Shown: positions 40,921 to 41,142 of the stretch, piece after piece
Position numbering within the stretch: position 1 is the stretch's first letter
Layout of the letters: each line of letters opens with the position of its first letter
Origin: an uncultured Planctomycetales bacterium
GTDB taxonomy: Bacteria > Planctomycetota > UBA1135 > CAZMYG01
Length of the DNA: 64,000 nucleotides
NCBI GenBank assembly: GCA_964570465.1
Contig: CAZMYG010000001.1
Coordinates: 4,174-68,173, forward strand
Direction: 5' to 3'
Translations under genes and position numbers: made by a program
Notes under the pieces: model-generated
Told to the model about the DNA's origin: nothing
Database searches by the model: none
Seen by the model: only the letters and a program-made list of their open reading frames with translations

Positions 40921-41142
40921 GAGAACGGCAGGCTAGGAACGTCACGTCGCGCAGGGCTAGTCCTGTACGGTCGCGGCATGGTCAGGCAGGCGCGGATAGG
41001 ATCGACCCGACAACGTCAGCATTGGCTGTTCATGGCAGGTAGGGTTGGCTTGGATCGTCGCCGATCGGCTGTGCTTGGCAAGGCAGGCAACGCAGGGGGC
41101 GCATGTCACGGCCGGGTAGGCAAGGCAGGAAATGCACGTCAA
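40921..41142 (+). repeat. GGCAGG-rich strand-specific repeat block 1
   Basis: About 5 GGCAGG plus GGCAAGG, GCAGGG, CACGTC(A) and GTCACG words, all on the + strand; no long-ORF support. Confidence 0.7.

What the first reader, a model, noticed from the sequence alone, without database searches (positions are those of the whole stretch)
40921..41142. GGCAGG repeat block 1 runs into the exonuclease gene start
This block uses the same word set as block 2 (about 5 GGCAGG, plus GGCAAGGCAGG, GCAGGG, GTCACG, CACGTCA). It lies in the 228 bp between a small ORF and the PD-(D/E)XK exonuclease. Its last repeat, AAGGCAGGAAATGCACGTCAATG, supplies the exonuclease ribosome-binding context, so the array may also control recombination-gene expression. 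GGCAGGC also occurs in the hairpin at 40482-40569 and inside tRNA-like element C.
Basis: seen in the sequence. Interest (0 to 1): 0.55.

Follow-up and report, generated by a model that had tools for sequence, protein, structure and literature searches.

The report
Guide-RNA array of a phage VIPR system
The GGCAGG block in front of the exonuclease gene is one of three arrays of five-base "GGC + two variable bases" repeats that flank a small CRISPR-like (RAMP) protein gene, so it is most likely a guide-RNA array of a recently described phage VIPR system and not a replication, partition or exonuclease-control element.

Summary
There are five GGCAGG in the 227-nt gap 40915-41141, against 0.08 expected, all on the + strand. 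The same words recur in two larger blocks (44257-44800 and 46098-46520).

The hidden unit is a pentamer, G-G-C/T-N-N. Positions 1-3 are conserved and positions 4-5 are essentially random. A one-base register slip (GGCA|GGC) occurs every 42-58 nt. A motif-free scan for 5-nt G periodicity over the whole 64 kb, both strands, picks out only these three blocks.

Blocks 2 and 3 flank a two-gene operon.
- The 257-aa product matches only the SUSP1 Vipr protein among PDB sequences (E 2e-6).
- Its model matches Csm3/Cas7-type CRISPR proteins.
- The 155-aa partner is conserved next to it in other phages.

Of 30 viral contigs found by the DNA repeat alone, 22 carry this Vipr gene within 1 kb on the same strand. 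None carries the exonuclease.

This fits VIPR (two bioRxiv preprints, 2026): Vipr plus GGY/NN guide RNAs that read DNA by a skip-one rule. Block 1 is an outlying, tail-less "staggered" array.

Expression, processing and targets are untested. Five target scans were inconclusive. Verdict: a new member of a known kind.

The parts
40927..41141 (+). Block 1, the finding: an outlying vrRNA-type array. Five GGCAGG-delimited units lie at 40927-40984 (58 nt), 40985-41033 (49), 41034-41081 (48), 41082-41123 (42) and 41124-41141 (partial, ending at the exonuclease ATG). The best in-register guide tracts start at 40940 (9 pentamers; NN = CA CG AG TA CT CG GC AT CA), 40989 (9 pentamers) and 41047 (7 pentamers).
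   Evidence: Lag-5 G autocorrelation is 0.35. Pentamer parse z = 9.7, with positions 1-3 at G 72% / G 75% / C+T 75% and positions 4-5 at <=0.11 bits. It is one of only three regions found by the motif-free scan. No RNA structure above chance (z = +0.93). No Rfam match.
44257..44800 (+). Block 2: a vrRNA-type array immediately upstream of the vipr gene, with 13 GGCAGG and spacings mostly of 43-53 nt.
   Evidence: Lag-5 autocorrelation 0.28. Parse z = 15.0. Found by the motif-free scan.
44834..45607 (+). vipr gene: a 257-aa minimal RAMP (Cas7-like) protein. Residues ~1-60 are a low-confidence basic extension. The thumb motif is R195-A-R197-P and the G-loop is G233-V-G-E236-G-R238.
   Evidence: phrog_4652. 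About 4600 homologs. A family profile hits only 'SUSP1 Vipr protein' 36pp_D among PDB sequences, E 2.2e-6 (repeated on the GenBank SUSP1 protein). AF2 model pLDDT 82. Foldseek PDB hits with E <= 0.001 are all backbone subunits of type III (Csm/Cmr) and type VII CRISPR complexes, best E 2.8e-5. BFVD hit 'Cas system-associated RAMP superfamily protein'.
45609..46076 (+). vap-like accessory gene: a 155-aa protein that starts 1 nt after the vipr stop.
   Evidence: phrog_15946. Homologs lie next to the array or the vipr gene in 23 of the fetched loci, most of them directly downstream of vipr. AF2 pLDDT 94. Only weak forkhead/winged-helix fold matches, E >= 0.3. No detectable similarity to SUSP1 vap1.
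46098..46520 (+). Block 3: a vrRNA-type array downstream of the vap-like gene, with 12 GGCAGG.
   Evidence: Lag-5 autocorrelation 0.37. Parse z = 13.2. Found by the motif-free scan.
46551..46592 (+). Terminator-like hairpin (CGGUCGGCCC...GGGCCGAUCG followed by UUUUU) that closes the block 2 - vipr - vap - block 3 unit.
   Evidence: Read from the sequence and folded (z = -1.9 for 46520-46606). The simple terminator scan missed it because its loop is longer than 8 nt. Inferred, not shown.

Best explanation
Block 1 is a guide-RNA (vrRNA) array of a phage-encoded VIPR system (Viral Interference Programmable Repeat). The system core lies 3.7 kb downstream: block 2, then vipr (44834-45607), then a vap-like gene (45609-46076), then block 3, then a terminator-like hairpin.

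Each unit of the three blocks is a run of about 7-10 pentamers of the form G-G-Y-N-N. A one-base register slip (GGCA|GGC, read as GGCAGGC) marks the junction to the next unit. I equate this with the tail-less 'staggered' array layout described in the preprint.

Mechanism, taken from the SUSP1 work and inferred here:
1. The + strand is transcribed, probably as part of the long early operon.
2. The transcript is cut into units.
3. One Vipr protomer binds each pentamer, sequesters the GGY bases and exposes the NN pairs.
4. The NN pairs read double-stranded DNA with one skipped base per pair (NNxNNx...), which usually falls on codon wobble positions.
5. Binding silences genes of competing phages or other mobile elements.

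Block 1 would add about 4 guides to about 25 in blocks 2 and 3.

Shown here: the repeat code, its restriction to three intergenic gaps on one strand, the Vipr homology and RAMP fold, the conserved two-gene operon, and the array-Vipr association across unrelated contigs.

Inferred: transcription, processing, Vipr loading, DNA targeting, and that block 1 is used like blocks 2 and 3.
For: 1. Code. Pentamer positions 1-3 are G 72-89%, G 67-75%, C 61-77%. Positions 4-5 carry <=0.21 bits in all three blocks. Parse scores are z = 9.7, 15.0 and 13.2 against dinucleotide shuffles. Lag-5 G autocorrelation is 0.28-0.37 against shuffle sd ~0.05.

2. Cleaner relatives. Units in other viral contigs are GGCA + (GGCNN) x 7, 8 or 9 = 39, 44 or 49 nt, with GG ~90%, C ~70% and NN random.

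3. Specificity. A motif-free periodicity scan of the 64 kb on both strands returns only the three blocks. The same scan recovers part of the published SUSP1 vrRNA regions (its upstream region and part of its downstream array).

4. Protein. The family profile hits only SUSP1 Vipr in the PDB sequences (E 2.2e-6), aligning the thumb YRP with ARP and the G-loop GVGDWRP with GVGEGRH. The residues reported as essential in SUSP1 map as R138 to R197, D177 to E236 and R179 to R238. The fold matches Csm3/Cmr4/type VII Cas7 and a viral 'RAMP superfamily protein'.

5. Architecture. Array, vipr, small partner gene, array is the layout of SUSP1 and of relatives L080, L129, L121 and L040.

6. Association. 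22 of 30 loci found by DNA pattern alone carry Vipr on the same strand within 4-1000 nt. In 7 of the other 8, the array sits within a few hundred nt of a locus end. The partner gene co-occurs in 23 loci.

7. Outlying arrays have precedent. In L067 an array is separated from vipr by excisionase-like and integrase-like genes.

8. Block 1 RNA has no structure above chance (z = +0.93) and no Rfam match. That fits a protein-coated linear guide.

9. Published description of VIPR: bioRxiv 10.64898/2026.04.26.720920 and 10.64898/2026.04.26.720927.
Against: - The window's pentamers are more degenerate than in many relatives. Only ~58-62% are full GG, with many GTC and CGC, and internal 4-nt slips break several units. 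A strict 6-of-8 GG scan finds only part of block 3.
- There is no structured 3' tail like that of SUSP1 vrRNAs. My equation of GGCA|GGC with the preprint's 'staggered arrays' rests on a figure legend only.
- The in-register tracts found in block 1 are 7-9 pentamers long. That is mostly at or below the 9-16 repeats reported for type II.
- No target was found. Four of five exact skip-one searches of IMG/VR gave nothing and one gave a single chance-level hit. Near-match counts in 1.19 Mb of held sequence were no higher for skip 1 than for skips 2 and 3.
- Block 1 is separated from vipr by three unrelated genes.
- No sigma-70-like promoter was seen on the + strand of 39900-47200.
- W178 of SUSP1, which stacks on G2, is a glycine here.
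- VIPR itself rests on two 2026 preprints.
Confidence: 0.8

Rival explanations
1. Block 1 is a relic: a displaced, decaying copy of a VIPR array that no longer yields functional guides. The recombination genes would have been inserted between it and the core.
For: Block 1 has only 26 of 45 full GG pentamers, and 4-nt slips inside units C and D break the register. It is separated from vipr by three genes that are absent from all other array loci. No targets were found for its two best guides.
Against: Block 1 is no more degenerate than blocks 2 and 3, which directly flank vipr. Lag-5 autocorrelation is 0.35 against 0.28 and 0.37, and GG pentamers are 58% against 61% and 62%. Relatives L129 and L131 show the same degree of internal degeneracy next to intact vipr genes. 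The preprint notes frequent internal degeneracy of vrRNAs. Strand and punctuation are preserved.
Confidence: 0.12
2. One reading: block 1 is mainly a cis-regulatory leader of the exonuclease/recombination operon. Its last repeat would provide the ribosome-binding context, and the array would be bound by a regulator to tune expression.
For: The last unit ends at the exonuclease ATG, with AGGA 11 nt upstream. Independent gene calls on three other contigs use this ATG. Arrays in relatives also end just before the next gene's start. If the array is processed, cleavage would define the 5' end of the exonuclease message.
Against: None of the 30 array-bearing loci has a homolog of this exonuclease, so the repeats do not travel with it. 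The same repeats occur upstream of vipr and after the vap-like gene, where no recombination gene follows. The 11-nt spacing is long for a Shine-Dalgarno. The RNA shows no structure above chance that could act as a switch. In relatives a separate AAGGAG or GAGG follows the array.
Confidence: 0.06
3. The blocks are DNA-level protein-binding repeats: iterons of a replication origin, or centromere-like sites for the protein encoded at 43152-44249.
For: There are direct repeats in three intergenic blocks within the replication/recombination region. A replication initiator gene lies at 47983-48855.
Against: Only a 6-7 nt word is conserved per 42-58 nt, and the rest varies with a 5-nt code whose two variable bases are near-random. 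There is no partition ATPase. The repeats co-occur with a RAMP protein across unrelated phages, not with the initiator or phrog_5931. Strong G over C strand asymmetry and strict co-orientation with transcription point to an RNA product.
Confidence: 0.02

Closest known systems
VIPR type II system of Escherichia phage SUSP1 (Vipr + vap1 + vrRNAs); bioRxiv 10.64898/2026.04.26.720920 and 10.64898/2026.04.26.720927; PDB 36pp
   Same: - The locus plan is the same: intergenic array, vipr, small partner gene, intergenic array, all on one strand.
- The repeat code is the same, with conserved GGY alternating with hypervariable NN at 5-nt period.
- The proteins are homologous by profile (E 2e-6), with the thumb Arg and the G-loop Asp/Glu and Arg conserved.
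- Both have a RAMP fold and both are phage-encoded.
   Different: - The pentamer here is GGC-NN, against GGT-NN in SUSP1.
- Units here are 42-58 nt with no structured pseudoknot tail and abut one another through GGCA|GGC. SUSP1 vrRNAs are ~100 nt, with 9-16 repeats plus a tail.
- There are about 30 units in three arrays here, against 4 vrRNAs in SUSP1.
- One array (block 1) is displaced by three genes.
- The Vipr protein here has a ~60-aa N-terminal extension, and Gly replaces W178.
- The partner protein shows no detectable similarity to vap1.
- Interior pentamers are more degenerate.
- The VIPR type (I-VII) could not be assigned, because the preprint's tables are not available.
'Staggered vrRNA arrays' of VIPR systems (fig. 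S18 legend of 10.64898/2026.04.26.720920)
   Same: The legend describes vrRNAs derived from positions that overlap by 1 nt, where the end of one vrRNA is the start of the next. In this family, GGCAG + (G)GCNN share one G, giving GGCAGGC and unit lengths of 5n-1 (39, 44, 49, 54).
   Different: The match is my inference from a legend. No sequence of a published staggered array could be compared. In the window itself spacings are 42-58 nt and often depart from 5n-1 because of extra internal slips.
Class 1 CRISPR-Cas (Cas7/Csm3 backbone on crRNA; repeat-spacer arrays)
   Same: The backbone protein has a RAMP fold. Best structural matches are Csm3, Cmr4 and type VII Cas7. One protomer binds per short RNA segment, and guide RNAs are encoded in arrays beside the protein gene.
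   Different: There are no 23-50 nt repeats, no spacers, and no cas1/cas2 or other cas genes. The guide information is non-contiguous: 2 of every 5 nt. The system is encoded by a phage.
Iterons and centromere-like repeat clusters of phage and plasmid replicons
   Same: Both are direct repeats clustered in intergenic DNA of the replication/recombination region.
   Different: No conserved 10-22 bp unit exists. The conserved part is 3 of every 5 nt and the remainder is near-random. The partner that co-varies across genomes is a RAMP RNA-binding protein, not a Rep or Par protein.

Membership tests
VIPR system (Vipr + vrRNA) | A Vipr protein is present: a minimal RAMP with an RRM core, a glycine-rich loop and a thumb. 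| tested here: met
   The profile of the 257-aa family hits only SUSP1 Vipr (36pp_D) in PDB sequences, E 2.2e-6, over the thumb and G-loop. The invariant motif is GxGEGR. The AF2 model (pLDDT 82) matches Csm3/Cmr4/type VII Cas7 with probability ~1.0 and best E 2.8e-5. A BFVD RAMP hit supports this. TM-scores are modest (0.35-0.5).
VIPR system (Vipr + vrRNA) | There are non-coding tandem pentamers with conserved GGY alternating with hypervariable NN (at least 4 repeats; 9-16 in type II). | tested here: met
   All three blocks show G/G/Y at 67-89% and NN at <=0.21 bits. Parse scores are z = 9.7-15 and lag-5 autocorrelation is 0.28-0.37. Block 1 has in-register tracts of 9, 9 and 7 pentamers. The repeats are more degenerate than in relatives. 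GGCAGG falls in all three reading frames, so the blocks are not coding.
VIPR system (Vipr + vrRNA) | The vipr gene is flanked by long intergenic regions that carry the repeats on the same strand. | tested here: met
   Block 2 ends 34 nt before the vipr ATG. Block 3 starts about 20 nt after the stop of the partner gene. The same layout is seen in 22 of 30 independent loci. Block 1 itself is 3.7 kb upstream of vipr, beyond three other genes.
VIPR system (Vipr + vrRNA) | A vipr-accessory (vap) gene lies next to vipr in a minimal operon and is predicted to interact with DNA. | tested here: inconclusive
   A 155-aa gene starts 1 nt after the vipr stop, and its family lies in or beside the array-vipr locus in 23 fetched loci, so synteny is met. 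DNA binding is only hinted at by weak forkhead/winged-helix/PadR fold hits, E >= 0.3. It has no similarity to SUSP1 vap1.
VIPR system (Vipr + vrRNA) | There is an invariant structured 3' tail after the repeat tract (a pseudoknot in the SUSP1 clade, type II). | tested here: not met
   Units abut one another. The only conserved junction is (GGCAN)GGCA|GGC. Block 1 has no structure above chance. The preprint states that array architecture varies among types and includes tail-less staggered arrays. This therefore argues against type II membership, not against VIPR membership.
VIPR system (Vipr + vrRNA) | vrRNAs are expressed, processed and bound by Vipr. | not testable with these tools
   This needs small-RNA-seq and pull-down. 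The only data here are that no sigma-70-like + strand promoter was found in 39900-47200 and that a terminator-like hairpin follows block 3.
VIPR system (Vipr + vrRNA) | The NN dinucleotides match natural DNA targets by the 1-nt-skip rule, typically in competing phages with the skip at wobble positions. | tested here: inconclusive
   Five 18-base exact patterns were scanned in IMG/VR. Four gave no hit. One gave a single hit in an AT-rich phage ORF with the skip at wobble positions, which I estimate to be near the number expected by chance (my estimate, not computed). A local search at >=85% NN match gave 44 hits for skip 1, against 21, 33 and 43 for skips 0, 2 and 3. The published method (nhmmer, >=80% match) could not be run on a large collection.
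Iteron / centromere-like DNA repeats | There are near-identical repeat units of about 10-22 bp, bound by a Rep or Par protein encoded nearby. | tested here: not met
   Tandem Repeats Finder reports no array across block 1 or block 2, and in block 3 only a local 19/39-nt one at 46411-46506. Only GGCAGG(C) recurs, and the remainder is a degenerate 5-nt code. No Par ATPase was found. The repeats do not co-occur with the initiator or with phrog_5931 in other loci.
CRISPR array | There are direct repeats of 23-50 nt separated by unique spacers of similar length. | tested here: not met
   Unit length is 42-58 nt in total, with a conserved word of 6-7 nt. No cas genes other than the RAMP homolog were found among the neighbours tested.
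Known structured RNA families (Rfam 15), including hammerhead-interspersed arrays and CsrB/Rsm-type sponges | The sequence matches a covariance model, or has GGA motifs in hairpin loops. | tested here: not met
   Only tRNA matched, both at gathering thresholds and at E <= 1 over 40400-46700. The block 1 fold gives z = +0.93.

The most novel reading that the evidence does not exclude
In this clade, VIPR guide arrays are tail-less and scattered through the intergenic gaps of the phage early operon. They would be cut out of the polycistronic mRNA at the GGCA|GGC junctions. Guide biogenesis from block 1 would then also create the 5' end of the exonuclease/annealase message, coupling anti-rival defence to recombination-gene expression. 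Conversely, the neighbouring RecE-like/annealase module could drive gain, loss and shuffling of guide units through the repeated GGCAGGC microhomologies. That would be a recombination-based, Cas1-independent way of renewing guides.
Probability: 0.12. Interest if true: 0.6.

Novelty: new member of a known kind. Interest (0 to 1): 0.4.

Why it matters
The finding turns an unexplained G-rich repeat into a recognisable part of an RNA-guided system. This phage appears to carry about 30 candidate guides in three arrays beside a minimal Cas7-like protein.

It also gives three practical points.
- The GGY/NN code can be found without a motif, by 5-nt G periodicity. In this window that scan was fully specific.
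- A large clade uses GGC-NN units joined by a one-base slip and no tail. The family has about 4600 protein clusters and includes Cyanophage Cy-LDV1 and many mycobacteriophages and Gordonia phages.
- Arrays can lie several genes away from vipr. Locus definitions limited to the immediate flanks of vipr would therefore miss guides.

If the guides can be matched to targets, they would show which rival elements this phage fights.

Tried and rejected
1. Tandem Repeats Finder found no array across blocks 1 and 2, because the copies are too divergent.

2. A strict scan for at least 6 of 8 GG in phase recovered only part of block 3 in the window. I replaced it with autocorrelation and a dynamic-programming parse with shuffle controls.

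3. These hypotheses were considered before the literature hit and dropped:
- a TRAP-like or CsrA-like RNA sponge (no structure; no Rfam hit);
- immunoglobulin switch-region-like R-loop or two-tetrad G-quadruplex tracts (the conserved C after GG and the tight link to a RAMP gene point to sequence-specific protein binding);
- Chi-like recombination hotspots, sigma-54 promoters and anti-Rho G-rich spacers (none explains a GGY/NN code);
- SSAP 5-nt binding periodicity (arrays do not co-occur with the recombination genes);
- a coding Arg/Gly-rich protein (GGCAGG falls in all three frames).

4. No close relative of the 7-kb region exists among deposited phages.

5. The target searches were inconclusive: five exact skip-one scans and a local near-match search.

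6. A search for exonuclease relatives in viral contigs found none, so the converse test (exonuclease homologs without arrays) was not done.

The preprint's supplementary tables are not held, so the VIPR type is unassigned.

8. No accession or host name could be recovered for the source contig.

Full report
**Observation**

The 227-nt gap between the 83-aa ORF (stop at 40914) and the PD-(D/E)XK exonuclease (ATG at 41142; PF12684/PF12705, phrog_412) holds five GGCAGG, at 40927, 40985, 41034, 41082 and 41124. All are on the + strand. The expected number from the + strand rate outside the blocks is 0.083 (P = 3e-8).

The window has 67 GGCAGG against 35.7 +/- 5.8 in shuffles. Thirty of them sit in three + strand blocks that cover 2.1% of the sequence:
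- block 1, 40927-41141;
- block 2, about 44257-44800;
- block 3, about 46098-46520.

**The real unit**

Splitting the blocks at GGCAGG gives units of 42-58 nt with a variable interior. I then searched IMG/VR for GGCAGGC x3 at about 41-48 nt spacing. This returned at least 120 contigs.

Many of these carry large arrays whose spacings are 34, 39, 44, 49 or 54 nt, that is, steps of five. In those arrays each unit is GGCA followed by 7, 8 or 9 copies of GGCNN. GG is about 90% conserved, C about 70%, and the two N positions are random.

The window's blocks are a more degenerate version of the same thing.
- G autocorrelation at lag 5 is 0.35, 0.28 and 0.37 for blocks 1, 2 and 3, against shuffle sd 0.05-0.06.
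- A dynamic-programming parse into pentamers scores z = 9.7, 15.0 and 13.2 against dinucleotide-preserving shuffles.
- Positions 1-3 are G 72-89%, G 67-75% and C 61-77%.
- Positions 4-5 carry at most 0.21 bits.

A motif-free scan of all 64 kb on both strands (lag-5 and lag-10 G autocorrelation) returns only these three regions. GGCAGG falls in all three reading frames, so the blocks are not coding.

**Identification**

A full-text search for pentanucleotide repeats in phages led to a 2026 preprint on VIPR systems, bioRxiv 10.64898/2026.04.26.720920. It describes:
- a minimal RAMP protein (Vipr);
- an accessory gene (vap);
- vrRNAs built of YNNGG pentamers, with conserved GGY and hypervariable NN;
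- a vipr gene flanked by long intergenic arrays;
- several array architectures, including 'staggered' arrays whose vrRNAs overlap by 1 nt.

A companion preprint, 10.64898/2026.04.26.720927, shows one Vipr protomer per pentamer. Each protomer sequesters GGY and presents NN for pairing with DNA in which every third base is skipped.

**Tests of membership**

*The Vipr protein.* The 257-aa protein encoded right after block 2 (44834-45607, phrog_4652) has about 4600 homologs.
- A profile of 40 of them hits a single PDB sequence, 'SUSP1 Vipr protein' 36pp_D, at E 2.2e-6.
- The hit aligns the thumb (YRP with ARP) and the G-loop (GVGDWRP with GVGEGRH).
- SUSP1 residues reported as essential or as contacting RNA map as R138 to R197, D177 to E236 and R179 to R238. 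W178 is replaced by G237.
- The AlphaFold model (pLDDT 82) was searched against the PDB. Its 37 matches at E <= 0.001 are all backbone subunits of Csm, Cmr, type III-D or type VII complexes, with best E 2.8e-5.
- In BFVD it matches a 'Cas system-associated RAMP superfamily protein'.

*The partner gene.* The next gene (45609-46076, 155 aa, phrog_15946) starts 1 nt after the vipr stop.
- Its family lies in or beside the array-vipr locus in 23 of the fetched loci, most of them directly downstream of vipr.
- Its model is confident (pLDDT 94).
- It gives only weak winged-helix-like fold matches.
- It is not detectably related to SUSP1 vap1.

*The locus plan.* Block 3 follows the partner gene and ends in a terminator-like hairpin with a U-run. 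The plan of array, vipr, partner gene, array equals that of SUSP1.

**Association across genomes**

Thirty loci carried strict pentamer arrays and had been found by DNA pattern alone. In 22 of them the Vipr family is encoded on the same strand, 4-1000 nt from the array. In seven of the other eight, the array lies within a few hundred nt of a locus end.

None of these loci encodes a homolog of the exonuclease, of phrog_3657 or of phrog_5931. The repeats therefore travel with vipr and not with the recombination genes.

Closer relatives use the same GGCAGGC punctuation and show similar interior degeneracy. Their arrays fill each intergenic gap of the operon:
- L129, Vipr 62% identical;
- L131, 51% identical;
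- Cyanophage Cy-LDV1, 55% identical.

In L067 an array is separated from vipr by excisionase-like and integrase-like genes. That is a precedent for the displaced position of block 1.

**Block 1 itself**

Block 1 has four complete units and a fifth that ends at the exonuclease ATG. Its in-register tracts are 9, 9 and 7 pentamers long. Its periodicity and GG content equal those of blocks 2 and 3.

As RNA it folds no better than shuffles (z = +0.93) and matches no Rfam family. This fits a protein-coated guide and does not fit a riboswitch-like leader.

The AGGA of the last unit lies 11 nt from the ATG, which is a poor Shine-Dalgarno spacing. In relatives the arrays also abut the next gene, but a separate AAGGAG or GAGG follows them.

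The block is 100% identical in three other metagenome assemblies of the same phage, so there is no population variation to exploit.

**Mechanism**

This part is inferred by homology. The + strand is transcribed, probably within the early operon, since no sigma-70-like + strand promoter was seen. Units are released at the GGCA|GGC junctions. Vipr protomers coat each pentamer and the NN pairs read dsDNA by the skip-one rule. Binding represses genes of rival phages or satellites.

**Targets**

Target identification was inconclusive.
- Exact skip-one patterns for five 9-pentamer guides were scanned in IMG/VR.
- Four gave nothing.
- One gave a single hit, in an AT-rich phage ORF with the skip at wobble positions.
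- By my own rough estimate, one or two exact hits per 18-base pattern would be expected by chance.
- A near-match search of 1.19 Mb of held sequence showed no excess for skip 1 over skips 2 and 3.

**Differences from the characterised SUSP1 system**

- The pentamer is GGC-NN here and GGT-NN in SUSP1.
- Units are shorter and have no pseudoknot tail.
- There are about 30 units in three arrays, against four vrRNAs.
- One array is displaced by three genes.
- The Vipr protein has an N-terminal extension of about 60 aa.
- The accessory protein is different.
- The interior of the units is more degenerate.

The VIPR type (I-VII) could not be assigned.

**Verdict**

The repeat block is real. It is best explained as an outlying guide-RNA array of a VIPR system, not as a control, replication or partition element for the exonuclease.

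VIPR was described in 2026, so this is a new member of a known kind. The open points are expression, processing and targets.

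Noticed in passing
window 40482-40569: A very stable 88-nt hairpin with a 14-bp perfect outer stem (ATGTCGTTCGAGAT...ATCTCGAACGACAT). MFE is -41.1 kcal/mol, z = -5.2, and no shuffle of 200 folds as well. It lies immediately upstream of tRNA-Gly(UCC) at 40572-40642 and holds a single GGCAGGC. It has no Rfam match and its function is unknown; it could be a processing or terminator element between the 117-aa ORF and the tRNA.
   Followed up: partly
window 34529-34598, 35403-35476, 38486-38557, 40572-40642: The phage carries tRNA genes. ARAGORN calls tRNA-Met(CAT) and tRNA-Gly(TCC). Rfam's tRNA model also scores two weaker tRNA-like elements, at 38486-38557 (36 bits) and 34529-34598 (32 bits), that ARAGORN does not call. 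Conversely, Rfam at gathering threshold does not list the ARAGORN tRNA-Met.
   Followed up: no
window 46551-46592: A terminator-like hairpin (10-11 bp G+C-rich stem, long loop, then UUUUU) lies right after block 3. It suggests that the array-vipr-vap-array unit ends a transcript. The simple terminator scan missed it because of its loop length. L131's array also ends in a T-run.
   Followed up: partly
window 41971-43107 and 43152-44249: Two genes of unknown function (phrog_3657, 378 aa; phrog_5931, 365 aa) lie between the RecE-like exonuclease and block 2. The first overlaps the exonuclease stop and may be the annealing partner. Neither has a Pfam hit and neither is found in other array-bearing loci.
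   Followed up: no
L134 8418-8443 (IMGVR_UViG_3300001851_000128): This is the only exact skip-one match found for any guide (block 3 unit at 46319). It lies in a 517-aa tape-measure-like ORF of an AT-rich phage, with all skipped bases at codon third positions. One hit in five scans is about what I would expect by chance, and the base composition suggests a different host.
   Followed up: partly
phage collection: Cyanophage Cy-LDV1 (BK059895.1, g34/g33), Mycobacterium phages (Gorge, Donkeykong, Brocalys and others) and Gordonia phages: Deposited phages encode homologs of this Vipr-family protein, all annotated as 'hypothetical protein'. In Cy-LDV1 the pentamer arrays lie after g34 and after g33, next to the excisionase gene. 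These cultured phages could serve as experimental models for this GGC-type clade.
   Followed up: partly
window 46103-46522 (and L122 1288-1707): Automatic gene calling on a public contig annotates a 139-aa Arg/Gly-rich ORF across block 3. Given the 5-nt code and the frame-shifting units, this is almost certainly a false gene call on a non-coding array.
   Followed up: partly
window 48447-48491 and 52570-52594: There are simple coding repeats. AGAGAA x6.5 gives (EK)n inside the replication-initiator gene, and ACG x8.3 lies within the poly-Asp C-terminus of a 101-aa ORF.
   Followed up: no
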